Part shown: positions 2,847-57,415 of the stretch, piece by piece | Numbering within the stretch: the stretch's first letter is position 1 | Layout of the letters: the number at the start of each line of letters is the position of its first letter | Position numbers and translations under genes: made by a program | IMG/VR virus record: IMGVR_UViG_3300033073_001448 | Span: 1-64,000 of that record | Origin: a virus | Taxonomy: Duplodnaviria; Caudoviricetes | Length of the DNA stretch: 64,000 nt | Direction: 5' to 3' (one strand) | The notes under the pieces: model-generated | Seen by the model: only the letters and a program-made list of their open reading frames with translations | Told to the model about the DNA's origin: nothing | Database searches by the model: none

Positions 2847-3529
2847 ATTACGCAACAAGTATCTATAGAGATGCCCCGGCTATCAACGAAGCCATGGGGC
2901 GAGTATACGGCCACATGATGCTGGCTGTGATTACATCCATGATTGTGGCCGGACTAGTTGGATCGTCAGCCGAAATGGTCGCATTCTTTTTTACCGGTGT
3001 CATGAAGTGGATAGTGATTTTTGCTCCTTTGGTGGCCATCTTTGGTATCTCGGCGGTGCTAGCAAATAACCCATCGGCACCAGTGGCTATCGGTATGCTA
3101 CACGGTTTTGCGGCACTCATGGGCTTGAGTTTTGCCACCATCTTTGTGTTGTACACTGTGGTCAGTATTTGGTCAGCGTTTATGGGTGCGGCTGTGCTAT
3201 TTGGCACTATGAGTGTGTATGGATACTTTACCAAACGCAGTCTTGACTCTATTGGACGCTATGCATTTGTGGCCTTGATTGCTATTGTTATTGTGAGTTT
3301 GATCAACTTGTTCTTGCAAAACTCTGCGCTACAAATGTTAATCTCAGCCATTGCTGTAGTGGTATTTTTGGCACTGACAGCCTACGACACACAACAGATT
3401 CGCGAAACACTGATGACTGATTCAGCAGGTGTAGCAGAAGAAGTATCAGGTGCGTTGACTTTGTACTTAGATTTTATCAATTTGTTTCTCAGTTTGTTGC
3501 AACTGTTTGGTGATAAGAAAGGCGATTAA
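2843..3529 (+). CDS. Bax inhibitor-1/YccA family membrane protein
   Basis: ~7 TM helices, AYDTQ and ALTLYLDFINLF motifs. Confidence 0.92.
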   Translation: MNYATSIYRDAPAINEAMGRVYGHMMLAVITSMIVAGLVGSSAEMVAFFFTGVMKWIVIFAPLVAIFGISAVLANNPSAPVAIGMLHGFAALMGLSFATIFVLYTVVSIWSAFMGAAVLFGTMSVYGYFTKRSLDSIGRYAFVALIAIVIVSLINLFLQNSALQMLISAIAVVVFLALTAYDTQQIRETLMTDSAGVAEEVSGALTLYLDFINLFLSLLQLFGDKKGD

Positions 3530-4880: not shown

Positions 4881-4909
4881 TTGACTATCACCATTTCCTT
4901 TGCTATAAT
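4881..4909 (+). promoter_or_regulatory. sigma70-type promoter
   Basis: TTGACT-17-TATAAT with extended TG. Confidence 0.8.
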
Positions 4910-4914
4910 TACTG

Positions 4915-5090
4915 TGCATGACCAAGGAGATTGTGCAGTCTAATGGGAGTAGTGGGGCGTTCGAACCTTGCCGGACCACTGCTTTGCCGTGGCATGTAGA
5001 CGTAAGTCACGTAGTTTGCGACAAAGGCCTTGAGAAATCAAAACCTGGGCTGGTACCCTGGGGGTATGCTATAAAGGATTAACCTAGTAA
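4915..5090 (+). ncRNA. putative structured RNA or long leader (alternative: leaderless 54-aa ORF 4918-5082)
   Basis: Stems AGTAGTGG/CCACTGCT and CTTTG/CAAAG; GNRA hairpins GAC-GTAA-GTC and TTGA-GAAA-TCAA; directly behind a promoter. Confidence 0.45.
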
Positions 5091-8134: not shown

Positions 8135-8351
8135 ACTACGTGGAAGATCAGTGCTGGTACAAGATGGGAATGTTGACCGAGCACTACGTAAATTTAAAAA
8201 GAAAGTTCAAACCAGTGGTATCTTAGACGACCTAAGAGCCAAGGAATTTTTTGAAAAGCCTACCACAGAGAAGAAACGCAAACGAGGTGCAGCAGTAAAT
8301 CGTTGGCGTAAAAAATTAGCCTCTCAACAACTGCCTAAGAAATTGTACTGA
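8127..8351 (+). CDS. rpsU: 30S ribosomal protein bS21
   Basis: [12 protein letters not shown]...EFFEKPT..KKRK signature. Confidence 0.92.
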
Positions 8352-8792: not shown

Positions 8793-10716
<1,924 letters not shown>

Positions 10717-15557: not shown

Positions 15558-16053
15558 ATATCACATTGAACGGTTCTGGGATGACGAGTTCAAAACTCTA
15601 GACTATATTCAGGAACCTTTCAATGATCCAGTAAGTGTAAACTTATGGATCAGTCAAGGATACCAAAGCAAAATCACAGGAGATCTCTGTGACATGAGAC
15701 ATCGTTTGCCTAGTTGGACCAGTAAGTTTATTAAAATTTACGAGTTGCAAGGATGGAAAGATGTTGGAATTGCATTCTATCGTATGCGCACTGGCACAGT
15801 AATGCCAGTTCACTCTGACTTATACAAACGCTATATAGAATTATTTGATCTACAAGGTCAAGAGACTTCAATTCGCCGAGCATTGTTGTTGTTAGAGGAT
15901 TGGAAGTCTGGACACTACCTTGAAGTTGAAGGTCGTCCATATGTAAATTGGCGAGCCGGAGATACAGTAGAGTGGGTGTATGACACCCCACATTCTGCAG
16001 CCAACATTGGCTTAGAGGATCGTTATACATTGCAAATCACAGGACATTTATGA
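15535..16053 (+). CDS. cupin / 2OG-Fe(II) oxygenase-like protein
   Basis: PVHSD (HxD), PHSAAN, RYTLQITG. Confidence 0.75.
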   Translation: MATPAVFKYHIERFWDDEFKTLDYIQEPFNDPVSVNLWISQGYQSKITGDLCDMRHRLPSWTSKFIKIYELQGWKDVGIAFYRMRTGTVMPVHSDLYKRYIELFDLQGQETSIRRALLLLEDWKSGHYLEVEGRPYVNWRAGDTVEWVYDTPHSAANIGLEDRYTLQITGHL

Positions 16054-17291: not shown

Positions 17292-17320
17292 TTGACAAGG
17301 TATTTATTAGAAGTTATAAT
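17292..17320 (+). promoter_or_regulatory. sigma70 promoter, leaderless start of uvsE
   Basis: TTGACA-17-TATAAT, ATG 6 nt downstream. Confidence 0.8.
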
Positions 17321-17326
17321 TACTGT

Positions 17327-18358
17327 ATGACTATTCCACGCTTTGGCTTTTGTTGCAAGTGGCTCAATGATCCCAGTGAAACTGGTGGCATGAAAGTCAA
17401 TGCAAAGGACCGTGATATCAACGGCAGATCAACTACTATGCGCTGGCTCCGTGAGCATGCGGACGAGGCTGAACAACGTCAGTGGGACATTATGAACCAC
17501 AATGCTCGTGCGGCTCTGCTCATGGTAGAACGTGTGGGCACACTTCCGCCTGAACGGCGCATGGTACGACTGGGGTCAGAAATGCTACAAGGCTATACTG
17601 AACCCTCATGGATTGATTGGTGGCAACGACGTGAAATACAAGATCACTGTGAAAAGATATTTGCACCGGTGGGTGACGCTGCTCGTCGACTGGGTGTTCG
17701 GTTATCATTCCATCCAGGACAGTTTTGTGTGCTTGCAAGCGAATCGGATGAAATTGTGGAGCGATCAATTCTCGAATTTGAGTACCATGCTGATATGGCC
17801 CGATGGATGGGATATGGCAGCACCTGGCACGATTCGGGCTTCAAGATCAACGTTCACTTATCGGGCAAGGGCGGTGCTGAGAAGTTTCTGCGAACCCTGG
17901 GCCGATTATCTCCAGAGGCTCGCAACCTCATAACCATCGAAAACGACGAGGTATCAAATGGTCTCGATATTAGTTTGCTTGTGGCTGAGCATGTTGCTCT
18001 TGTGCTGGATATTCACCATCACTGGGTCAAAACGGGCGAATACATCAGCCCTGAAGACTCTCGTGTCCAGCGGGTTATTGAGTCTTGGCGTGGTCAGCGT
18101 CCTGCTCTTCACTTTTCTACTAGCCGCGAAGATCTTTTGGTCGACCATGATCCAGGAGTTCGACCCAACTTGGATTCTCTTATTGCTAGAGGTTTTAAAA
18201 AACAGCAACTCCGGGCACACAGTGATTTCTGCTGGAATCACGCTGTGAATGATTGGGCATTGACATTCAGTGAGCACTTTGACATTCAAGTTGAAGCCAA
18301 GGGCAAGAATCTAGCAACACAACAACTTTATGAACAACATCTTAGCCGGAATATTTGA
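17327..18358 (+). CDS. uvsE: UV damage endonuclease UvsE
   Basis: RLSFHPGQF, LEFEYH, INVH, IENDE, LDIHHH, RAHSD, VEAKGK. Confidence 0.93.
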   Translation: MTIPRFGFCCKWLNDPSETGGMKVNAKDRDINGRSTTMRWLREHADEAEQRQWDIMNHNARAALLMVERVGTLPPERRMVRLGSEMLQGYTEPSWIDWWQRREIQDHCEKIFAPVGDAARRLGVRLSFHPGQFCVLASESDEIVERSILEFEYHADMARWMGYGSTWHDSGFKINVHLSGKGGAEKFLRTLGRLSPEARNLITIENDEVSNGLDISLLVAEHVALVLDIHHHWVKTGEYISPEDSRVQRVIESWRGQRPALHFSTSREDLLVDHDPGVRPNLDSLIARGFKKQQLRAHSDFCWNHAVNDWALTFSEHFDIQVEAKGKNLATQQLYEQHLSRNI

Positions 18359-19676: not shown

Positions 19677-19693
19677 ATGTTGCGACGCAACAT
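19677..19693. promoter_or_regulatory. palindromic operator (PhaR-box-like) over the -35
   Basis: ATGTTGCG-A-CGCAACAT; TTGCGA-18-TATAAT. Confidence 0.55.
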
Positions 19694-19718
19694 AATTATC
19701 ATATATAATATAGACTGA

Positions 19719-19771
19719 GGACGCTGAATAGGTCAGGTCCCAATCGTAAACTCGCTTAATAAGGAGAAACC
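19719..19771 (+). promoter_or_regulatory. ROSE-like twin-hairpin leader
   Basis: GGAC-G-CTGA/TCAG-GTCC and CTCGCTT/AAGGAG. Confidence 0.6.
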
Positions 19772-20032
19772 ATGTTTACAGCAGACTTTTTCATCGACAC
19801 CGTACAAACCGGTAAGAAATCTTTCGTTAATACCTTTGTTCAACACGAGCCTACCAAAAAGGCCATGATTGAATTCATCGACGCCCAAGCCTCTTACACC
19901 AAAGAAGCAGTTAAAACTGGAACCAAGTTGGTTACCAAATTGGCCGACGAAGGCATGAAAGCCGCACAAGAAGTTACCAAATTTGACATGAGCAAATTCG
20001 ACTTCAGCAAAGCATTTGCCACTAAAAAGTAA
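19772..20032 (+). CDS. phasin-like amphipathic helical protein
   Basis: 86 aa amphipathic helices; PhaR-like box upstream. Confidence 0.5.
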   Translation: MFTADFFIDTVQTGKKSFVNTFVQHEPTKKAMIEFIDAQASYTKEAVKTGTKLVTKLADEGMKAAQEVTKFDMSKFDFSKAFATKK

Positions 20033-20053
20033 TACCTAAGTATTAATTTTCTC

Positions 20054-20075
20054 AAGCCCCAATTTTTGGGGCTTT
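20054..20075 (+). terminator. intrinsic terminator
   Basis: AAGCCCCAA-TTT-TTGGGGCTTT. Confidence 0.75.
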
Positions 20076-20078
20076 CTC

Positions 20079-20107
20079 TTGACCGGAAATTCTAGTTTTG
20101 CTATAAT
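20079..20107 (+). promoter_or_regulatory. sigma70 promoter
   Basis: TTGACC-17-TATAAT. Confidence 0.8.
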
Positions 20108-20116
20108 TACGATATT

Positions 20117-20275
20117 ATGAAAGCCATACAGTTTAAGATTCAACCTCCTAAGGAGCGTCGACACCGTGCCCTGTTTGATCAGGACCTGCCGTTCCGCGCC
20201 CGTGTGGAACGTCCCAAAACTGAGTATCGTCGTCGACCCAAACACACCAAGCGAGGGTACGATGAATCTGCGTGA
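20117..20275 (+). CDS. ArfA-like alternative ribosome rescue factor (52 aa, not in ORF track)
   Basis: ALFDQDLPFRARVERPKTEYRRRPKH aligns with the ArfA core ALLHDPLFRQRVE...YMRKGKH. Confidence 0.65.
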   Translation: MKAIQFKIQPPKERRHRALFDQDLPFRARVERPKTEYRRRPKHTKRGYDESA

Positions 20276-20420
20276 ATTAATTGTTGGACGAATCCTATTT
20301 GCGTGTGATGAGGAAATTTTGATTCGCAACCACGGCATCACAGAAGATGAAGTAGAAGAGTTAAGCGACCTAGATTTGTTTGAGCTCTTTGAATCTGTTT
20401 TCTTGGAAGAAATTAAATGA
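20262..20420 (+). CDS. hypothetical protein
   Basis: GAGG SD, MNLRELIVG... Confidence 0.65.
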   Translation: MNLRELIVGRILFACDEEILIRNHGITEDEVEELSDLDLFELFESVFLEEIK

Positions 20421-20635
20421 TATCTTTTACTCCCGAACAAGACCAATACCTGCAACTGGCTCAAACTCGTGCTTACTATGATGGCGTGCGCGAAGGCGTG
20501 ACTATGTATGCCCACTGGAAAGATGGTGAGCAGTATGTGGGCACCACTGGTCGCACACTCAAAGAAGCCATTGAGCGAGTGAGCTTGGCCGAAGCCGATG
20601 TGCTGAGTCGTTTTCGCAACATGGCATTGATCTAA
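20417..20635 (+). CDS. hypothetical protein
   Basis: ATGA coupling; AHWKDGEQYVGTTG. Confidence 0.7.
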   Translation: MISFTPEQDQYLQLAQTRAYYDGVREGVTMYAHWKDGEQYVGTTGRTLKEAIERVSLAEADVLSRFRNMALI

Positions 20636-20880
20636 TGATGGCACGACCCGTTCATTTACCTTACCGAGCCTCTAACCCGCGAAGCATTCGTGGTGCAAAA
20701 AAACGTGGGTGGACTGTGGTTCGTGTTCGGAACAACTATTCAGAAACTACATCCTGGATGGGGTTGAATATTTGGTGTGAACGCGGGGTTGGTGGCTATT
20801 GGCTGTCAAGTTTTCATTATCGTGAATTTGCATTTGAAAATGGTCGAGATGCTACAATGTTCAAATTGAAATGGGGCTGA
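20635..20880 (+). CDS. FxL(R/K)W family small protein
   Basis: NIWCE...FAFENGRDATMFKLKWG. Confidence 0.8.
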   Translation: MMARPVHLPYRASNPRSIRGAKKRGWTVVRVRNNYSETTSWMGLNIWCERGVGGYWLSSFHYREFAFENGRDATMFKLKWG

Positions 20881-20881
20881 A

Positions 20882-21106
20882 ATGTATCGTACCATTTTTG
20901 TCTCGGTGTTGATTGTGTTAACAGGATGTGCTAATCGCATCCCCCCTCCGCCCATGGCTGTACAAGCCATGCCCAACGATTGTGCTAATCGCACAGCCAT
21001 AATCAATTGGCTGAGCGATTTAGAACGAAAGCAAACCGATGAACGCTATCGTGGAGAAATCCGTGCTAAAATTTGGACTGTGCGCTATAACTGTCAGCCT
21101 GTTTAG
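20882..21106 (+). CDS. lipoprotein
   Basis: Lipobox LTGC. Confidence 0.75.
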   Translation: MYRTIFVSVLIVLTGCANRIPPPPMAVQAMPNDCANRTAIINWLSDLERKQTDERYRGEIRAKIWTVRYNCQPV

Positions 21107-21392: not shown

Positions 21393-21946
21393 AACGATTG
21401 TTACTGTTACTGACTGTTCCGATGATTGTTCATGCAGAATGTGTATTGCATGATCGAACAGTATCTACGTCCACTGCTCGCATCGAAGAGCGCAGTGGGT
21501 TACGACAAAATATAGTTCGATTACCTTCGGGCGAAAGCCGATGCTTGGTTAACTTTCGGGCCAGAATTGGTTCGCAGTGGCACATGGCGGCAGGACACTA
21601 TGACTGGCCTGGCGATCGTCCAGCCGGCGAGGCCTGTGCAGTTGCCGCGGCTCGTGCTGATGATTTTGCCTTGAGTTCGGCCGCACCAAAAAATGTTCGC
21701 AGTGAAAAAGTCATGGTTTGTAACGATCAACCAGACAATCGTATATTAAAAGAAGCACGAATTGGCACGCAAGGAGAGCTTCACCAATTCAGACCACATC
21801 CGAAATACCCCGAACGTTTTTGGCACAATGGTGCTCAGTGTCGTTGGTTTTTAGATTCGGGCTGGAACGGACAAGATGTCCGAACTATGCAAGGAGTAAT
21901 TTGTGAACTGTCAAACCAGAAATGGGTGGTGGTTGACAAGTTTTAA
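21389..21946 (+). CDS. secreted Cys-containing protein
   Basis: Signal peptide MKRLLLLL...VHA. Confidence 0.7.
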   Translation: MKRLLLLLTVPMIVHAECVLHDRTVSTSTARIEERSGLRQNIVRLPSGESRCLVNFRARIGSQWHMAAGHYDWPGDRPAGEACAVAAARADDFALSSAAPKNVRSEKVMVCNDQPDNRILKEARIGTQGELHQFRPHPKYPERFWHNGAQCRWFLDSGWNGQDVRTMQGVICELSNQKWVVVDKF

Positions 21947-21961
21947 TTTGATGTGTATAAT
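21933..21961 (+). promoter_or_regulatory. sigma70 promoter
   Basis: TTGACA-17-TATAAT. Confidence 0.75.
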
Positions 21962-21994
21962 AAAACTATCTTAATTGCAACCTGAAAGGACAAT

Positions 21995-22801
21995 ATGTTC
22001 AAGTCATTATCAACTGTGGCTCTTGCGGCATCACTTGTTGCTTGTGCTAGCACTCAAAAGGCCGAAGTGGCACCTGCACCTGCACCTGCAATGGTCCCAC
22101 ACCCGTATGCCCTGCCAGCACAGCCGGCCCGAACAGTGGTGGCTGCCCCGGGTTGGTTTGTTAAAATGCCCGACAATACCGCAGACATGATCTTTGCTGT
22201 CGGAACTGCTACATCAACGGATGAACAAATGGCCTACGACAAAGCACGTATGGCTGCCGAACGCAAGTTGGTAGAGCAAATGTCCAGCCAAGTCCGTACT
22301 CAGACCAAGAGCTACAAAGTAGATACAGGCAATGCAGTTGCTGAACGTTTTGAGCAAACTGTACAAAAAACTGCCAATGGAGAATTGATTGGTGCTCAAC
22401 GTGTAGATGCTCAGGCAACATTTGACGGTCGTCAATACAAGGTCTATGTTTTGTTGCGATATCCTTTGGCAGAAAACAATGTTCTGCGTCGAGAGCGTGA
22501 ACAAGCCCGTGCTCAGCGCGAAACCGAACTGCGAGCCGCTCGAGCCCAGCAAGAACTTGATGCTACAATGACACAGCAACGTCAAGACCAAAAAGCCGAC
22601 GAGGCCCAGCAACGTCGCGATATTGGCCCTGTGCAACCGCAGAGTTCAGCACCGGCTACTATTCCCTATGCACCTACATCTGTGCCCACAGCAGACGGAG
22701 ACGTCAAACTGCTTCAAGTTGACAATGCAGAATATCAGCGTCGACGTGCAGAAGCTCTGGAAAAACCTGGTGCTGTGATTGGTAACACAACTGTTCGTTG
22801 A
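21995..22801 (+). CDS. LPP20-like lipoprotein
   Basis: Lipobox LVAC, PGWF, AVGTA, A.DKA...A...L. Confidence 0.75.
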   Translation: MFKSLSTVALAASLVACASTQKAEVAPAPAPAMVPHPYALPAQPARTVVAAPGWFVKMPDNTADMIFAVGTATSTDEQMAYDKARMAAERKLVEQMSSQVRTQTKSYKVDTGNAVAERFEQTVQKTANGELIGAQRVDAQATFDGRQYKVYVLLRYPLAENNVLRREREQARAQRETELRAARAQQELDATMTQQRQDQKADEAQQRRDIGPVQPQSSAPATIPYAPTSVPTADGDVKLLQVDNAEYQRRRAEALEKPGAVIGNTTVR

Positions 22802-25069: not shown

Positions 25070-25693
25070 ATGCCAAATTTAGTGCCTATCGTTATTGAAC
25101 ACAGTAGCAAAGGCGAGCGTAGTTACGATATCTACAGTCGCTTGCTCAAAGATCGAGTGATCATGCTAGATGGTGAAGTTGGATCACACAATGCCAGTTT
25201 GATTGTAGCTCAATTGTTGTTTCTCGAAGCCGAAAATCCAGACAAAGACATCAATTTGTATATCAACTCGCCCGGGGGGTCTGTCACAGCAGGCCTGGCA
25301 ATCTATGATACCATGCAGTTTATCAAGTGCGATGTGTCTACCATTGTGATTGGGCAGGCTGCTAGCATGGGCAGTTTCTTAGCACAGGCCGGAGCCCGGG
25401 GCAAACGTTTTGTGCTTCCAGAATCACGTACAATGATCCATCGTGTTAGTTCTGGTACTCCAGGAACTCGTGGCTCAGTTCATGTACAAGAACTTGAGTT
25501 TGAAGACGCACGACGTCACTTTGAAGAATCAAAACGTTTAAATAAACGTCTAACTGAGTTGTATGTTAAACACAACACAGCGGGCAAGACTTACGAAGAA
25601 CTGTTTGAGACCATGAAGTTTGATACATTCTTGTCCGCACAAGAAGCAGTGGATGCTGGCTTTGCCGACAAGGTTGTTGAAAAACGTGCCTAA
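25070..25693 (+). CDS. clpP: ATP-dependent Clp protease proteolytic subunit
   Basis: [40 protein letters not shown]. Confidence 0.96.
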
Positions 25694-26966
25694 CCAACAT
25701 ATATTTTGCAATACTCCGTGGTACGAACTACACATCTATTGGGATGGTAGTTTAGGTATCTGTTGTCAAGAGGATCATAAACTGTACTCTGGCAATGCCT
25801 ACAACATAGCCACCACAGGTATTGCAGAATGGTTTAATTCTGAACCAGTTAGAAATTTTCGACATCGCATACTAGGATCAAATCCTGTGAGTGAATGTGC
25901 TCGTTGCTATCGCGAAGAAACTGTTAACGGTGTGAGTCGTAGAATTCGTAGCAATCAAAAAAGTGCAATCTTTACTCAAGCATTTGATGCTAGTTTTGAG
26001 CAAAGCCCAGGACGGAAACACTTTGCAATATCTGGGCACACCAACACACAACCCATTGACATTCACATTGACCTAGGAAACTATTGCAATTTGGCTTGTA
26101 AGATGTGCAATGCACAAGCCAGTTCAACTATTGCAGTTCAAGAAGTCAAGTGGGGCATTGATTCGAGCAAACCTTATGTAGGATTAGATTGGACTCGCAA
26201 TCAGTTAGTATGGGACAGTTTCAAACAACAGTTACTGGATATTACTGGTCTCAACAATATCCACTTCATGGGCGGAGAGACGCTACTCACTGATCGATTC
26301 GAAGATCTAGTGGATTGGTTAATTGAGCATCGGCGATTTGAAGTTTGTTTGAGTTTTGTAACCAACGGCACAGTCTACAAGCCGGAATTAATGACTAAAT
26401 TGCAACGGTTTCGACGTGTGGGTATTGAAATCAGCATAGAGACTGTGGACCAACACAATGCCTATCAAAGACAAGGTACAGACACGTCTGTGGTATTGAC
26501 CAACATTGATCAATATTGCAAACTTGGTAATCCCATGGAAGTTTGTTTACGTCCAGCAGTGAGTGCATTGACCATTGGGTATCATGCTGGATTGATTGAA
26601 TATGCACTGGATAAAAAATTACCAATCAAAAGTTTGTTGGTCAACGAACCTAGATTTTTAGACGCTGAAATTTTGCCCCAGTTTGTGAAATTACAGTACC
26701 TGCAGACCTACGTGCCGCTGATTCACAAGCTGTCAACAGGCCACAGCAAAGATTACAATGCTATGGACCCAAATGAATTTCGGCGTAACTTGGCTCAGCA
26801 GGTTGAAATGTGTGTGAGTATTCTTTCAACGCCGCAGGCCCCGGACAGTGAAGCTCAACTTGCACTCATGGTTGATCACTGCCGCAAATGGGATCAAGTA
26901 TACAATTTAGATGCCCGACAATTGTATCCTGAATTAGATGACGTATGGGACCAGCATGCTTACTAA
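25686..26966 (+). CDS. radical SAM protein with N-terminal SPASM/twitch-like domain
   Basis: [27 protein letters not shown]. Confidence 0.88.
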
Positions 26967-32878: not shown

Positions 32879-32907
32879 TTGACCAAAAAATCAATTTAGG
32901 TTATAAT
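32879..32907 (+). promoter_or_regulatory. sigma70 promoter, leaderless start
   Basis: TTGACC-17-TATAAT, ATG 6 nt downstream. Confidence 0.8.
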
Positions 32908-32913
32908 TAGGGC

Positions 32914-34188
32914 ATGAAGTATATCTCTGCTCTTGTTACAACTTTGGTATTAACTGCCTGTGGTGGCGGGGGCGGGGCCTCTAGCGGATCAAACGGTCCT
33001 GCGTTAGCCGGCTTGGCCTACTCTAATGTTGGTGCAGTTTTGGTGCCAGGAAAATTCGGGCCCGACCAAAGCCAGTATGTAATATCTTCTTCGATTAGAT
33101 ATCTAGGCAACGGTCAAACTGAGCCAGGCCCGGTAAAAGTTTTCAAATTGGCTAGTACTGGATTGTTGACAGATCAAACTGTGGAAATTCTAGGTGGTGC
33201 TGTTTCAGCATTTACCAACGTGCCCATAGTAACTGATTTCAATCATGACGGCATCGACGACATATTTTTACCAGGATTCACTGACACCCAGGATCTTGTG
33301 GGCAGTATTGCATTTATCAGTCGCAGTGGACAAAGTCATATCAAAGTAACTCTTCCTGATCCAGTTTGGGCGCATGGTGCAGCCGCAGTTGACATCAATA
33401 ATGATGGACATACAGATGTGATCAGTAGCCAAGGTCATGCATGGATCAATGATGGACAAGGTAACTTTAATTTTCGTGCTCACAGTTATAATGATGTTCC
33501 TGGATTATGGATGCATGGATCAGGCGTGTGCGCCGGTGACTTTAATAACACAGGACGTCCACAATTGGTTTTTACTGACTTGAACAATGATGGAAACAAA
33601 GCCCCTATTGCCGACACAGTGATTTTTGAAATTGACCATCAAGGGTTACCTACAGTACAACACACTCTTCCTGTGCCCATTCTAGACAGGGTCACCGCCA
33701 CTGAAACCAGTCATGATGTGGCATGCAAGGTTGCAGATTTAAACAATGATGGACTGCTAGACATTGTGGTATTGAGTCGTCCTTGGGCCTCGACTGGCCA
33801 GTCGTGGTCCAATCAAGGTCAGGCTCAAATCTTAATAAACCGTGGAAATTGGCAATTTGATGATGTTACAGATACTGCTTTAGCAGGATTTAATACCAAT
33901 GTGCTGATTAGTTATGCTCCATTGGTGCTCGACCTAAACGGAGACGGCAAACTTGATCTGTGGTTTGGATATTTTGATTATGACACTGGACAAGCCAATC
34001 AAGTGTTTTTAAACAACGGTAGTGGTATTTTTACCAAGGTGGCGTCGGACATGGTCAATGGGTTTGTGGCCTCTGGCGGAATGATTCCTGTAGCAGTTAA
34101 CAACCGATGGGCATTGGTATACGCTAAAATGAATACATCAAACAAAACCACAACCTTTTATGTCACTGAATCAATCTATAACTTTTAG
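32914..34188 (+). CDS. FG-GAP/VCBS repeat lipoprotein
   Basis: Lipobox LTAC-GGGGG; repeats DFNHDGIDD, DINNDGHTD, DLNNDGLLD, DLNGDGKLD. Confidence 0.88.
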   Translation: MKYISALVTTLVLTACGGGGGASSGSNGPALAGLAYSNVGAVLVPGKFGPDQSQYVISSSIRYLGNGQTEPGPVKVFKLASTGLLTDQTVEILGGAVSAFTNVPIVTDFNHDGIDDIFLPGFTDTQDLVGSIAFISRSGQSHIKVTLPDPVWAHGAAAVDINNDGHTDVISSQGHAWINDGQGNFNFRAHSYNDVPGLWMHGSGVCAGDFNNTGRPQLVFTDLNNDGNKAPIADTVIFEIDHQGLPTVQHTLPVPILDRVTATETSHDVACKVADLNNDGLLDIVVLSRPWASTGQSWSNQGQAQILINRGNWQFDDVTDTALAGFNTNVLISYAPLVLDLNGDGKLDLWFGYFDYDTGQANQVFLNNGSGIFTKVASDMVNGFVASGGMIPVAVNNRWALVYAKMNTSNKTTTFYVTESIYNF

Positions 34189-44630: not shown

Positions 44631-44804
44631 ATGCGTATAAATGAAGTTCAACAACCATCAGACAAAACTCTGTTTGAAAGCATCGATGCCGAAAACAATA
44701 CTGGATATTTAACTGAGGATCTGGTGCGTGTGGTACGTGCCGCTGAATCTAATCAGTGGTCCGCGCCCATGACTGCTCAAGACCTCTTGGAGAGTTTAAA
44801 ATGA
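44631..44804 (+). CDS. putative antitoxin (acidic, 57 aa)
   Basis: TAAATA 4 nt upstream; coupled to toxin-like gene; C-terminal MTAQDLLESL resembles RelB/DinJ tails. Confidence 0.55.
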   Translation: MRINEVQQPSDKTLFESIDAENNTGYLTEDLVRVVRAAESNQWSAPMTAQDLLESLK

Positions 44805-45172
44805 CTGTGCGGTTCACAATGAGCCCACTGTTTAAAGAAACCTATGCTAGGCATGCCAGGGGAGCTCCTGGTCTGGCTGCAAAATTTGACGCATTTATTT
44901 CCGCCAAAACGCAAGCGCCAATTCAGCAATTTGGCAAAAACGATACTCTGTTGATCAGTACTGGCCCTTTGGGTCGTTCAGTTCCTGGATTGAGACACGC
45001 ACACCTGTCACAGGACCTATCAGTATTTTACACCATTGAAGGCAGGAACCCTACCTTGATCAAACTCTACGGAATTTTTAGTCACAAAGAATCCGGTACA
45101 AGCAACAATGCCAACATCAAAGTCCAAAAAAATCTAGGGCAACAACTGTCAAATCAGGTGTTTACAGATTAA
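44801..45172 (+). CDS. RelE/YafQ-like mRNA interferase
   Basis: SPLFKE, LRHAHLSQDLSVFY, LIKLYGIFSHKE resemble the YafQ pattern. Confidence 0.65.
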   Translation: MTVRFTMSPLFKETYARHARGAPGLAAKFDAFISAKTQAPIQQFGKNDTLLISTGPLGRSVPGLRHAHLSQDLSVFYTIEGRNPTLIKLYGIFSHKESGTSNNANIKVQKNLGQQLSNQVFTD

Positions 45173-45179
45173 ACCCAAA

Positions 45180-45281
45180 GTATTACAAAACCCTGGTAGT
45201 ACCAGGGTTATTTTTTTGGTTGACCAGAATTTACCGATTTGCTATAATAATGACATGTTGAAACAAAAGGAGAGTCAGATG
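45180..45281 (+). promoter_or_regulatory. GTANTAC sites + early promoter + RBS cassette
   Basis: GTATTAC, palindrome AACCCTGGTAGTACCAGGGTT, TTGACC-17-TATAAT, AAGGAG. Confidence 0.8.
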
Positions 45282-47029: not shown

Positions 47030-48493
47030 ATGCACCTAAAATGTCTTGACAACGCAGGTCGAACCGCAGATGTTGTGTTGATCACAACACCTTGGGTTAA
47101 CACTAACTTGCCGTTGATGGCCCCTGCTTCTTTGAAGCCTGCCATTGAAATGGCAGGCTATTCTTCTTTTTGTACCGATCTAAATGGTGAGGTCTATAAT
47201 CTTCTACAACAGCACCCGTACCGAGAACAGGTGTTGGAATTTTTCTTTGCAGGCACCACGTGTGACAAGATCAAAGATTGGGTTGAAGATTTTATGAACA
47301 GCACTGTAGATCAAATTTTGCAATTTAATCCAAAGTTTGTTGGTCTGAGCTTGTTTACCTATGCGTCACGGAGTGCCTGTTTTTGGATTTGTGAAAAAAT
47401 AAAGCAACGTCAGCCCGAGATCAAAATCATAGTTGGCGGCGCTGGTTGCTTGGAGTCTTTCACTGGTCCAGGAATATTTGCTGAAGAAATGATAGCTCTA
47501 GGGTTGGTAGATTATCATATACGAGGCGATGGTGAACATGCATTGACTCAGTTACTGTTGGGCAACGATCGGTATCCGGGCATCAACAGCCCAACATGGA
47601 AAGAAATTACCAACGAAGAACTACATCAACTTCCTTGGCCTAATTACGACGATTATGATTTTTCGCAATACGAACGCAAAGTAATTGGTATACACGGCAG
47701 TCGCGGATGTGTGCGAGCTTGTACATTTTGTGACTACATTGAAAATTGGACCAAGTTTCAGTGGCGCACCGCCGAAAGCATATTTGAAGAAATGAAAACG
47801 CAGTACAAAAAATATGGCATGCGTTACTTTAAATTCAACGATACACTGACCAATGGCAATCTCAAAGAATTCAACAAGTTGATTAAATTATTGGCCGACC
47901 ACAACATAGCCAATCCCAACGATCGTTTGCATTGGGGCGGTTACTATATTTTTAGAGAACAGTCAGCCAACGATGACGAAATGTGGAATACTATCAAACA
48001 ATCAGGAGCTTCGTTTTTGGTAGTAGGCATTGAGAATCTCAATGAGGAGATTAGATACCATATTGGCAAAAAGTTCAGCAATGCCAGTATTGATTATCAT
48101 CTTGCCCAGGCCAAAAAACATCGCATAGGCATGCTATTGTTGTTTATTGTGGGCTATGTTACTGAAACTCAGCAACACATTGACTTTAGTAAAAAGTGGC
48201 TAGAGGATCATGTTGAGTTCAAAGATTCTATTCAACTACATTGGGACCAAACCTTGGCTATCTTTCCCAATACGCATTTGCATCGCAACAAAGACCAGTT
48301 AGGCATTAAACTAGGAACCAACCCTCACCTTTGGATCAACATTGAGACTGGGTCCGATCAATCTACCCGCGCTCAATGGATACAAGAGTTAGTAGACAAA
48401 AGTCGAGAGTTAGGCTATAACATCTTAGACAAGGTTGACAATCACTATTATTTAGAGCAGAAATTAAGTGCATTGTCTATGAAAAATCTGTAA
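47030..48493 (+). CDS. B12-binding-domain radical SAM enzyme
   Basis: IIVGGAG, GDGE, SRGCVRACTFC, GIE, IVGY.TE. Confidence 0.88.
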   Translation: MHLKCLDNAGRTADVVLITTPWVNTNLPLMAPASLKPAIEMAGYSSFCTDLNGEVYNLLQQHPYREQVLEFFFAGTTCDKIKDWVEDFMNSTVDQILQFNPKFVGLSLFTYASRSACFWICEKIKQRQPEIKIIVGGAGCLESFTGPGIFAEEMIALGLVDYHIRGDGEHALTQLLLGNDRYPGINSPTWKEITNEELHQLPWPNYDDYDFSQYERKVIGIHGSRGCVRACTFCDYIENWTKFQWRTAESIFEEMKTQYKKYGMRYFKFNDTLTNGNLKEFNKLIKLLADHNIANPNDRLHWGGYYIFREQSANDDEMWNTIKQSGASFLVVGIENLNEEIRYHIGKKFSNASIDYHLAQAKKHRIGMLLLFIVGYVTETQQHIDFSKKWLEDHVEFKDSIQLHWDQTLAIFPNTHLHRNKDQLGIKLGTNPHLWINIETGSDQSTRAQWIQELVDKSRELGYNILDKVDNHYYLEQKLSALSMKNL

Positions 48494-52169: not shown

Positions 52170-52206
52170 GTATTACATTGACCAATAATCCTATATTTGC
52201 TATAAT
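52170..52206 (+). promoter_or_regulatory. GTATTAC site + sigma70 promoter, leaderless start
   Basis: TTGACC-17-TATAAT, ATG 6 nt downstream. Confidence 0.8.
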
Positions 52207-52212
52207 ATAGGC

Positions 52213-52440
52213 ATGATTACGCAAACAACCAAGACTTACATTTGTCTGCGCCCTGGCGACCCGGACTTTGCATTTTCGCCCAATGGCATCTCCCTGGTGC
52301 CACGTGCAGGTTTTGAAATCAGCAAAAAGTGTCCGGACCATTACAAACAGATTTTAATGGAATGCTTGCGGCATGACTGGATCACGCCTGTGGCACACAT
52401 GCGCGACACTGAATATACCATGGAGTTACTTCGAAAATGA
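52213..52440 (+). CDS. hypothetical protein
   Basis: PRAGFEI...CP. Confidence 0.7.
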   Translation: MITQTTKTYICLRPGDPDFAFSPNGISLVPRAGFEISKKCPDHYKQILMECLRHDWITPVAHMRDTEYTMELLRK

Positions 52441-57196: not shown

Positions 57197-57415
57197 ATGG
57201 CTAAAGAAGAAGGTTTAAAAATGGACGGTGTTGTGGTAGATGTACTGCCCAACGCTATGTTTAAAGTCAAAATTGCAAATACAGAATCTGTGATCACAGG
57301 CATAATTTCAGGACGCATGAGACAGCACAACATCAAAATTTTACTGGGAGATACTGTGGAAGTAGAATTCAGTCCATATGACCTCACCCGCGGACGTATC
57401 ACACGTCGCCGCTAA
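57197..57415 (+). CDS. infA: translation initiation factor IF-1
   Basis: MAKEE, LPNAMF.V, ISGRMR...I.IL.GD.V.VE.SPYDLTRGRI. Confidence 0.96.
   Translation: MAKEEGLKMDGVVVDVLPNAMFKVKIANTESVITGIISGRMRQHNIKILLGDTVEVEFSPYDLTRGRITRRR

What the first reader, a model, noticed from the sequence alone, without database searches (positions are those of the whole stretch)
20117..20275. Unlisted 52-aa ArfA-like ribosome rescue factor on a near-leaderless early transcript
Seen: MKAIQFKIQPPKERRHRALFDQDLPFRARVERPKTEYRRRPKHTKRGYDESA, starting 9 nt after a TATAAT with no SD. Established: the E. coli ArfA core is ALLHDPLFRQRVE..KGKGSY.RKGKH; it recruits RF2 to non-stop ribosomes and is normally made as a truncated product controlled by tmRNA. 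Inference: this version stops naturally at about the active length and lacks the KGKGS loop, so it may be a constitutive rescue factor or a ribosome mRNA-channel modulator.
Basis: partly seen in the sequence, partly recalled or inferred. Interest (0 to 1): 0.72.

Follow-up and report, generated by a model that had tools for sequence, protein, structure and literature searches.

The report
Phage ArfA-like ribosome-rescue mini-protein
A large uncultured freshwater phage carries a real, strongly conserved 52-codon early gene that is a stripped-down distant relative of ArfA, the bacterial peptide that frees ribosomes stuck on broken messages; the phage probably makes it all the time from an almost leaderless mRNA, but nobody has tested what it does.

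Summary
The 52-aa ORF at 20117-20275(+) exists. It sits 9 nt after a TG-extended TATAAT with TTGACC 17 nt upstream, and it has no Shine-Dalgarno sequence. It is a real gene: relatives have dN/dS of 0.05-0.3, there are 30 close clusters and 139 distant cluster representatives, and synteny is conserved in T4-like phages of about 340 kb.

The ArfA reading is largely supported as remote homology. P0001 does not match Pfam ArfA, and its DUF7230 match is below threshold. However, the family profile hits only ArfA chains in the PDB (E 0.002). Profile-profile alignment to 31 bacterial ArfAs gives 93.7% probability (P 2e-7; best of 200 shuffles 18 against 35). In six-frame searches of 401 proteobacterial genomes, its only two hits are their arfA genes.

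Retained ArfA features are the A18-L19 helix, the Phe, the RxRVE strand that pairs with RF2, and the KH motif. Missing are the KGKGS loop (invariant in the bacterial ArfAs), the hydrophobic tail and the RNase III hairpin. The gene ends in a normal stop.

The most likely function is a constitutive, early, host-RF2-dependent rescue factor. That activity is untested. The scan has reported this class on many other phage genomes, and IMG already names some members ArfA. I class it as a new variant of a known kind, of moderate interest.

The parts
20055..20073 (+). GC-rich hairpin (7-bp stem AGCCCCA/TGGGGCT, 5-nt loop) followed by a T-rich stretch. It is the probable terminator of the upstream 86-aa gene and marks the start of a new transcription unit.
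   Evidence: Read directly. Relatives have hairpins of different sequence at the same place just before the -35. It was not scored by the terminator scan because the T-run is weak.
20079..20084 (+). -35 hexamer TTGACC
   Evidence: Identical hexamer and 17-nt spacer in 15 of 19 homologous loci.
20099..20107 (+). Extended -10 element, TGcTATAAT
   Evidence: the TG before the second hexamer is flagged. Conserved in relatives.
20114..20116 (+). Predicted 0-3 nt leader. The likely start is A20114, the 7th nt after the -10. Inferred, not mapped.
   Evidence: Inference from standard sigma-70 geometry. Relatives have 6, 7 or 9 nt between the -10 and the ATG. No RNA reads covered this gene.
20117..20275 (+). 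52-aa ArfA-like protein (P0001), with a natural TGA stop
20262..20420 (+). Next gene of the unit (52 aa, no family match). Its ATG overlaps the ArfA-like stop by 14 nt and is preceded by GAGGG at 20254-20258.
20417..21106 (+). Further tightly packed small genes of the same + strand unit (72, 81 and 74 aa), with no family match.
   Evidence: The 72-aa gene follows the ArfA-like gene directly in relative L003.

Best explanation
P0001 is a phage-borne, naturally short, loop-less homologue of the bacterial alternative ribosome-rescue factor ArfA.

The proposed mechanism has four steps:
1. Host RNA polymerase transcribes the gene early from a consensus sigma-70 promoter, giving an mRNA with a 0-3 nt leader.
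2. Because the gene ends in a real stop codon, and has no RNase III hairpin and no hydrophobic tail, the peptide escapes the tmRNA-dependent switch that keeps bacterial ArfA off. It is therefore made constitutively.
3. Its basic C-terminal half, including the KH motif, threads into the vacant mRNA entry channel of 70S ribosomes stalled at the 3' end of truncated mRNAs.
4. The short helix (A18-L19), F26 and the RxRVE strand dock host RF2 by beta-strand addition and let it hydrolyse the peptidyl-tRNA. This returns ribosomes to the pool while host, or nuclease-cut, mRNAs are being destroyed during infection.

Shown here: the gene is real, it is homologous to ArfA, the named residues are retained, the regulatory features are absent, the promoter geometry is conserved, and the phage lineage has no release-factor, SmpB or tmRNA gene. 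Inferred: ribosome binding, RF2 recruitment, early timing, and the benefit to the phage.
For: Real gene:
- dN/dS is 0.05-0.3 against 18 relatives.
- There are 30 clusters at 63-90% identity and 139 representatives at E<=1e-3 among 1.84 billion proteins.
- The UvdE...gene...ClpP order is conserved in contigs of about 348 kb.

Homology to ArfA:
- The A1 profile against the PDB returns only ArfA chains, E 0.002-0.03. The broader A2 profile gives the same result.
- hhalign of A1 against 31 bacterial ArfAs gives 93.7% probability, P 1.9e-7, score 35.2. Two hundred column shuffles gave mean 9.5, sd 2.3, maximum 18.3.
- The A2 profile searched six-frame in 401 Pseudomonadota genomes gives only two hits. 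Both coincide with the PF03889-defined arfA loci.
- The bridging protein, Pseudoalteromonas phage J2-1 ArfA (also loop-less and stop-terminated), scores 41 bits on PF03889 and is 47% identical to P0001 over 36 aa.
- IMG names several cluster members ArfA.

Functional residues, as listed in review PMC8012679, align and are invariant or nearly invariant in A1:
- A18-L19 of the helix (A18T kills RF2 activation)
- F25 of ArfA, aligned to F26
- the Q27-E30 strand, aligned to A28-E31
- Y39/R41
- K44-H45, aligned to K42-H43

Regulation:
- There is no significant structure at the 3' end of the gene (z -0.87), whereas E. coli arfA has a 20-bp hairpin.
- All family members stop 6-10 aa after the KH motif.

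No own partner: no RF-1/RF-2 domain, no SmpB, and no tmRNA above cut-off in this record or in four relatives, two of them at least 97% complete.

Fold: AF2 predicts an extended chain with a single short helix at 17-20, mean pLDDT 81. This is compatible with ribosome-bound ArfA.
Against: - P0001 does not match Pfam ArfA at all. Its only Pfam hit is DUF7230, below threshold at 19 bits against a cut-off of 27.
- The KGKGS loop is invariant in all 31 bacterial ArfAs examined and lies in the mRNA channel. It is deleted here. Literature says no single residue of that motif is essential (PMC6299226).
- The N-terminal 14 residues, which in ArfA become ordered against the RF2 switch loop, are unrelated in sequence.
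- No experiment on any phage ArfA-like protein was found in the paper library.
- No transcript evidence for this gene was obtained.
- Fold searches found nothing, as expected for an extended peptide.
- The host is unknown, so the presence of a compatible RF2 is assumed.
Confidence: 0.55

Rival explanations
1. The peptide is a ribosome mRNA-channel plug or modulator, not a rescue factor. It binds vacant channels through its basic tail and KH motif but does not activate RF2, much like the ArfA A18T mutant. It thereby blocks tmRNA-SmpB or host ArfA, or holds idle ribosomes for phage use.
For: The best-conserved similarity to ArfA, DUF7230 and the PHROG families lies in the C-terminal channel-binding half. 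The N-terminus and the KGKGS loop differ from ArfA.
Against: The residues that contact RF2 in ArfA, not rRNA, are the most invariant in the family: A18, L19, F26 and RxRVE. Channel binding in ArfA is redundant and tolerant of substitution (PMC8012679), so it would not explain that invariance.
Confidence: 0.2
2. The peptide is a rescue factor with altered partner or substrate range. It may recruit RF1 as well as RF2, as ArfT of Francisella does. Alternatively, because the channel-obstructing loop is missing, it may tolerate longer 3' mRNA overhangs than ArfA, which would suit ribosomes stalled on mRNAs cut by nucleases.
For: The loop that in ArfA obstructs the channel and limits overhangs to about 3 nt (PMC8012679) is deleted. 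The N-terminus is distinct but conserved. ArfT shows that small stop-terminated factors can use either RF (PMC6299226).
Against: There is no direct evidence. F25-type hydrophobic contacts that favour RF2 are retained.
Confidence: 0.12
3. The peptide is an unrelated small basic nucleic-acid-binding protein, and its likeness to ArfA reflects composition or convergence.
For: It is short, arginine- and lysine-rich, and has no match to PF03889. E-values of single-sequence comparisons are weak.
Against: Column-shuffled profiles never approach the observed score. The ArfA hits are specific in both the PDB and whole bacterial genomes. Motif order and spacing match apart from one 3-residue deletion.
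Confidence: 0.06
4. The ORF is not a gene. It is a chance ORF, or the antisense 202-aa ORF is the real gene.
For: The ORF is short, and a long ORF lies on the opposite strand at 20036-20644.
Against: There is strong purifying selection with near-saturated synonymous change. There are hundreds of homologues. The antisense frame is broken in relatives.
Confidence: 0.01

Closest known systems
ArfA (YhdL), alternative ribosome-rescue factor A of beta- and gammaproteobacteria (Pfam PF03889; PDB 5MDV, 5U4I, 5H5U, 5MGP)
   Same: Same length as the mature form (52-55 aa). Shares the A-L helix, the Phe, the RxRVE strand that pairs with RF2, the Y-x-R motif and the KH motif, all in the same order. The profile relationship is reciprocal and specific.
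   Different: No PF03889 match. The invariant KGKGS loop is deleted, and one residue (P25) is inserted before the Phe. The N-terminal 14 residues are unrelated. It has a natural stop instead of a non-stop mRNA made at an RNase III hairpin, and no hydrophobic tail. It is phage-encoded and near-leaderless.
ArfA annotated in Pseudoalteromonas phage J2-1 (ATN93434.1, 51 aa)
   Same: Phage-borne, stop-terminated and loop-less (ERDKTKY against ERPKTEY). It is 47% identical to P0001 over 36 aa.
   Different: Its N-terminal half is canonical ArfA-like and it passes PF03889 at 41 bits. P0001's N-terminal half is different, and P0001 does not pass.
DUF7230 (Pfam PF23876) and PHROGs 6310, 2701 and 18092 (all of unknown function)
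   Same: Short basic proteins that share the strand plus K-x-Y-x-R-K-x-K-H tail. Of the wider family, 42 of 140 members hit DUF7230 at E<0.01.
   Different: P0001 scores 19 bits against a cut-off of 27. The rare bacterial DUF7230 genes (2 of 401 genomes) have another N-terminal motif (NPVAK), and one has a hydrophobic tail. No paper mentions DUF7230.
ArfT (Francisella) and BrfA (Bacillus), the other small release-factor-dependent rescue factors
   Same: Small basic peptides that bind the empty mRNA channel. BrfA shares the KH motif, and ArfT is a stop-terminated protein of 40 aa (PMC8012679, PMC6299226).
   Different: No sequence relationship was detected here. The PDB profile searches returned ArfA chains almost exclusively.

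Membership tests
ArfA (Pfam PF03889) | Scores above the PF03889 gathering threshold (25.5 bits) | tested here: not met
   P0001 has no hit even at E<=10, and there is no hit in the six-frame search of the phage record. Only 5 of 140 members of the wider family reach E<0.01.
ArfA (Pfam PF03889) | Detectable homology to bona fide ArfA by profile methods | tested here: met
   PDB hits are ArfA chains only, E 0.002. hhalign gives 93.7% probability, P 1.9e-7. The best of 200 shuffles scored 18.3 against 35.2. The only hits in 401 genomes are arfA loci.
ArfA (Pfam PF03889) | RF2-contacting elements: helix with A18, F25, and beta-strand Q27-E30 | tested here: met
   They align to A18-L19, F26 and A28-R29-V30-E31, which are invariant or nearly invariant in A1. 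Roles are taken from PMC8012679.
ArfA (Pfam PF03889) | KGKGS loop in the mRNA channel | tested here: not met
   The loop is present in all 31 bacterial ArfAs. In P0001 and all of A1 a 3-residue deletion leaves PKTEY in its place.
ArfA (Pfam PF03889) | C-terminal KH motif and basic tail | tested here: met
   K42 is at least 90% conserved and H43 is invariant in A1. They align to K44-H45 of ArfA.
ArfA (Pfam PF03889) | Synthesis from a non-stop mRNA (hairpin or RNase III site inside the ORF, hydrophobic C-terminal tail) under tmRNA control | tested here: not met
   The gene has a natural stop, no tail and no significant structure. The E. coli control shows the hairpin.
ArfA (Pfam PF03889) | RF2-dependent peptidyl-tRNA hydrolysis on non-stop ribosomes | not testable with these tools
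   This needs biochemistry.
DUF7230 (Pfam PF23876) | Scores above the gathering threshold (27 bits) | tested here: not met
   19.2 bits, E 1.3e-3, over residues 26-49 only; 18 bits in the six-frame search.
Leaderless mRNA genes | Promoter -10 element placed so that transcription starts at, or within about 3 nt of, the start codon, with no SD | tested here: met
   The geometry is present and conserved in 15 of 19 loci. The transcription start itself has not been mapped.

The most novel reading that the evidence does not exclude
The loop-less, always-on ArfA-like peptide may be one component of a phage translation-takeover set. The set would also include phage-encoded IF-1 and ribosomal protein bS21 and many leaderless early genes. 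In this reading the peptide strips ribosomes off host mRNAs that are being cut during infection. Because it lacks the channel-obstructing loop, it might do so even with longer 3' overhangs than ArfA tolerates, and so hand 70S ribosomes directly to leaderless phage messages.
Probability: 0.12. Interest if true: 0.75.

Novelty: new variant of a known kind. Interest (0 to 1): 0.45.

Why it matters
Bacterial ArfA is a back-up factor that is made only when trans-translation fails. A large family carried by uncultured phages keeps ArfA's RF2-docking and channel-binding residues but has dropped every element of that control, and also the loop that is invariant in bacteria. This suggests that phages deploy ribosome rescue deliberately and early, presumably to recycle ribosomes stranded on degraded mRNAs.

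The family also offers a natural minimal ArfA for asking two questions: which parts of the peptide are needed for RF2 activation, and what sets the mRNA-overhang limit. No member has been tested. The class is already partly annotated by IMG and has been found repeatedly in this scan, so the value lies in an experiment rather than in the discovery of the gene.

Tried and rejected
- Single-sequence searches of P0001 gave nothing usable: Pfam ArfA, NCBIfam, the PDB, and cultured phages by tblastn.
- tblastn of three other family members (P0070, P0104, P0038) against cultured phages found no match, so no cultured host could be named.
- Megablast of the region against cultured phages found no match.
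- The scan of 185,579 species genomes with close-family patterns found one weak relative, in a Devosia MAG contig. I did not follow it up.
- Complex prediction with E. coli RF2 was requested six times and was never available. Nothing was folded.
- Foldseek and VIA-align searches with the AF2 model found no match. This is uninformative for an extended 52-mer.
- Metatranscriptome contigs from four RNA runs covered only the neighbouring gene (19725-19948) and 21745-22000, not this gene. This says nothing about whether the gene is expressed.
- No tRNA, tmRNA or Rfam family was found in the 92-kb record. The sub-threshold tmRNA-model hits in relatives are short and clustered, probably tRNA genes.
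- The 'RelE/YafQ-like' ORF suggested by another first-reader note (44801-45172) has no Pfam or PDB sequence match. The attractive link between a phage mRNA interferase and a rescue factor is therefore unsupported.
- The ESM Atlas feature search returned only unnamed clusters and one cluster with a 10% DUF7230 share.

Full report
**1. What is in the sequence**

The elements upstream, in order, are:
- a GC-rich hairpin at 20055-20073
- TTGACC at 20079-20084
- a 17-nt spacer
- TGcTATAAT at 20099-20107
- nine nucleotides with no Shine-Dalgarno-like run
- the ATG

With standard sigma-70 geometry, transcription would start at about A20114, leaving a leader of 3 nt. That start is an inference. The next ORF (20262-20420) overlaps the stop codon by 14 nt and has its own GAGGG. 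A string of small genes with no family match follows.

**2. Context**

The window is part of a 91,992-bp IMG/VR virus record that CheckV estimates to be 27% complete. Relatives carrying the same gene are contigs of 343-349 kb. One of them has a T4 gp23-type capsid gene. The window also encodes a DNA ligase, a GroEL-type chaperonin, UvdE, ClpP and radical-SAM enzymes. The record additionally encodes IF-1 and ribosomal protein bS21. It holds no tRNA, tmRNA or Rfam match. The DNA is present in freshwater metagenomes from several studies.

**3. It is a real gene**

- A word-indexed search found 30 clusters at 63-90% identity, all 49-57 aa when the start is called correctly.
- An exhaustive HMMER search found 139 representatives of 50%-identity clusters at E<=1e-3. 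Nearly all are 35-60 aa, with the consensus R-x-H-x-x-L-F-D-x-D-L-P-F-x-x-K/R-x-E-x-x-K-x-x-Y-x-R-K-x-K-H.
- Against 18 relatives' DNA, synonymous sites are near saturation (mean pS 0.68) while pN averages 0.18. For the pairs with the window, dN/dS is 0.05-0.32.
- Gene order from UvdE through this gene to ClpP is conserved.
- The 202-aa ORF on the opposite strand is broken in relatives.

**4. The promoter arrangement is conserved**

In 15 of 19 distinct loci the gene is preceded by TTGACC, 17 nt (18 nt in one locus) and TATAAT (TACAAT in one locus), then 9 nt to the ATG; two loci have 6 or 7 nt instead. None of the 15 has an SD. Three loci have no such promoter. They have a GGAG or AAGG SD and are coupled to an upstream ORF, using the same start codon, which independently confirms the start. 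One locus has a 22-nt leader.

Among distant family members whose starts were over-called by gene finders, 8 of 21 read through an in-frame 'Y/H-N' (TATAAT or CATAAT) two or three codons before the true Met. So the geometry recurs beyond the close clade.

The arrangement is not unique to this gene. The window has 20 strong sigma-70-type promoters on the + strand and one on the - strand. Six of the 20 have an ATG 6-9 nt after the -10, including uvdE at 17327. 'Early' is inferred from the host-type promoter in a T4-like phage.

**5. Relationship to ArfA**

Direct family tests fail:
- P0001 has no PF03889 hit at E<=10 and no NCBIfam hit.
- Its only Pfam hit is a sub-threshold match to DUF7230: 19.2 bits against a cut-off of 27, over residues 26-49.

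Profile methods are consistent and specific:

(a) A profile of the 30 close homologues searched against 177,635 PDB sequences returns six hits. All are E. coli ArfA chains, with E from 0.002 to 0.03. The 140-member profile returns the same six ArfA chains, plus one bL21 chain at E 1.3.

(b) I collected 30 bona fide bacterial ArfAs by searching PF03889 in 401 Pseudomonadota genomes, where it was found in 36, and added E. coli ArfA. hhalign of the phage family against this set gives 93.7% probability, P 1.9e-7, score 35.2. The wider family gives 91.7%.

(c) Two hundred column shuffles of the phage alignment gave a mean score of 9.5, sd 2.3 and a maximum of 18.3. The reversed alignment scored 10.1. 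Composition therefore does not explain the match.

(d) The reciprocal test: the 140-member phage profile searched six-frame through the same 401 genomes has exactly two hits at E<=1e-3. Both coincide with arfA loci already defined by PF03889, G251 425310-425477 and G196 15877-15999.

(e) A bridging sequence exists. The 51-aa protein annotated ArfA in Pseudoalteromonas phage J2-1 passes PF03889 at 41 bits and DUF7230 at 28.6 bits. It is also loop-less and stop-terminated, and it is 47% identical to P0001 over 36 residues.

(f) IMG's pipeline already names several cluster members 'stalled ribosome alternative rescue factor ArfA'.

**6. What is kept and what is lost**

Residue roles come from the review PMC8012679. 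Equivalences come from the alignments.

| ArfA feature | ArfA residues | P0001 residues |
|---|---|---|
| Helix (A18T blocks RF2 activation) | helix 15-24; A18-L19 | A18-L19 |
| Phe that contacts RF2 strands beta4 and beta5 | F25 | F26 |
| Strand that extends the RF2 domain II/IV sheet | Q27-E30 | A28-E31 |
| Tyr and Arg | Y39, R41 | Y37, R39 |
| KH motif that sits in a pocket of the mRNA channel | K44-H45 | K42-H43 |

All of these P0001 positions are invariant or nearly invariant in the close family. L19, P25, F26, R39 and K42 stay at least 90% conserved across the 140 distant members. That pattern points to a specific protein partner and not merely to redundant rRNA binding.

What is lost:
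- The KGKGS loop is present in all 31 bacterial ArfAs and is replaced here by a 3-residue deletion. The ArfT paper states that no single residue of that motif is essential, although substitutions reduce activity (PMC6299226).
- The ArfA N-terminal 14 residues are replaced by a different conserved segment, M-K-x-I-x-F-x-I/L.
- The hydrophobic C-terminal tail is absent.
- The intragenic hairpin is absent. The phage RNA shows no significant structure (z -0.87), whereas E. coli arfA folds into its known hairpin of about 20 bp.

At 52 aa the protein matches the mature ArfA length of 52-55 aa (PMC6299226). It extends past the point where truncation kills ArfA, since the 40-aa form is inactive (PMC8012679).

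**7. Other evidence on mechanism**

Neither this record nor four relatives, two of them at least 97% complete, encode an RF-1/RF-2 domain, SmpB, or a tmRNA above cut-off. Any release activity must therefore use the host factor. AF2, given the 140-sequence alignment, predicts an extended chain with one short helix at 17-20 and a mean pLDDT of 81. This is compatible with the ribosome-bound shape of ArfA. Fold searches are blank. RNA contigs did not cover the gene.

**8. Distribution and prior knowledge**

- The close family was found in only one of 185,579 species genomes, a MAG contig. The wider profile found no member in 401 proteobacterial genomes other than true arfA.
- All contigs that carry family members are 360 kb or shorter.
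- No cultured phage matched.
- DUF7230 is rare in bacteria, at 2 of 401 genomes, and no paper in the library mentions it.
- Literature searches found no paper on phage-encoded ArfA.
- Earlier agents of this scan reported the same class on many other phage genomes and reached the same reading. I re-tested the claims here rather than relying on those notes.

**9. Verdict**

The ArfA-like interpretation is supported as remote homology with retention of the functional core, but formal family membership is not met. Three defining features of ArfA are absent: the KGKGS loop, non-stop regulation and a chromosomal bacterial setting. The most likely function is constitutive, early, host-RF2-dependent ribosome rescue (about 0.55). 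Rivals are a channel plug without release (about 0.2) and a rescue factor with altered RF or overhang specificity (about 0.12). This is a new variant of a known kind, of moderate interest, and the next step is biochemical.

Noticed in passing
window 4881-4917, 17292-17329, 32879-32916, 45220-45257, 52178-52215: Five further consensus TTGAC(C/A/T)-17-TATAAT promoters have an ATG 6-8 nt after the -10, including uvdE at 17327 and a 424-aa gene at 32914. In total, six of the 20 strong + strand promoters drive leaderless or near-leaderless genes, and only one such promoter lies on the - strand.
   Followed up: partly
window 57218-57409 and 8148-8303: The phage encodes translation initiation factor IF-1 (71 bits) and ribosomal protein bS21 (67 bits), both above the Pfam cut-offs.
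   Followed up: partly
window 44801-45172: A 123-aa ORF that another first-reader note calls RelE/YafQ-like has no Pfam or PDB sequence match. The E. coli control for the YafQ model also failed to ring, so that one test is inconclusive.
   Followed up: partly
L054, L055, L060, L062, L063, L065 (bacterial arfA loci): Several bacterial ArfA ORFs lack the long hydrophobic tail and end in -AA (endings such as LMAA, LLAA, SKAA, RQAA), resembling the end of the ssrA tag. This may be a built-in degron as an alternative way of keeping ArfA low.
   Followed up: no
L077 1480-1710 and L078 (- strand, about 1435-1884): The rare bacterial DUF7230 genes share an N-P-V-A-K motif followed by F-+-x-+-V and a K-H tail. 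One has a hydrophobic C-terminal extension like ArfA. DUF7230 may therefore be an undescribed ArfA-type rescue factor family.
   Followed up: no
window 19725-19948: Metatranscriptome contigs from three runs in two studies cover the neighbouring 86-aa gene (19772-20032). They begin shortly after its TTGCGA-18-TATAAT promoter at 19680-19709.
   Followed up: no
window 9073-10716, 25620-26966, 47030-48493: Auxiliary genes: a GroEL-type chaperonin, and two radical-SAM enzymes (one with a SPASM domain, one with a B12-binding domain).
   Followed up: no
L032 (Devosia MAG contig, 3001-3120): This is the only relative of the close family found in 185,579 species genomes (45% identity over residues 16-52). 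It lies on a 31-kb contig that may be a mis-binned phage or a prophage.
   Followed up: no
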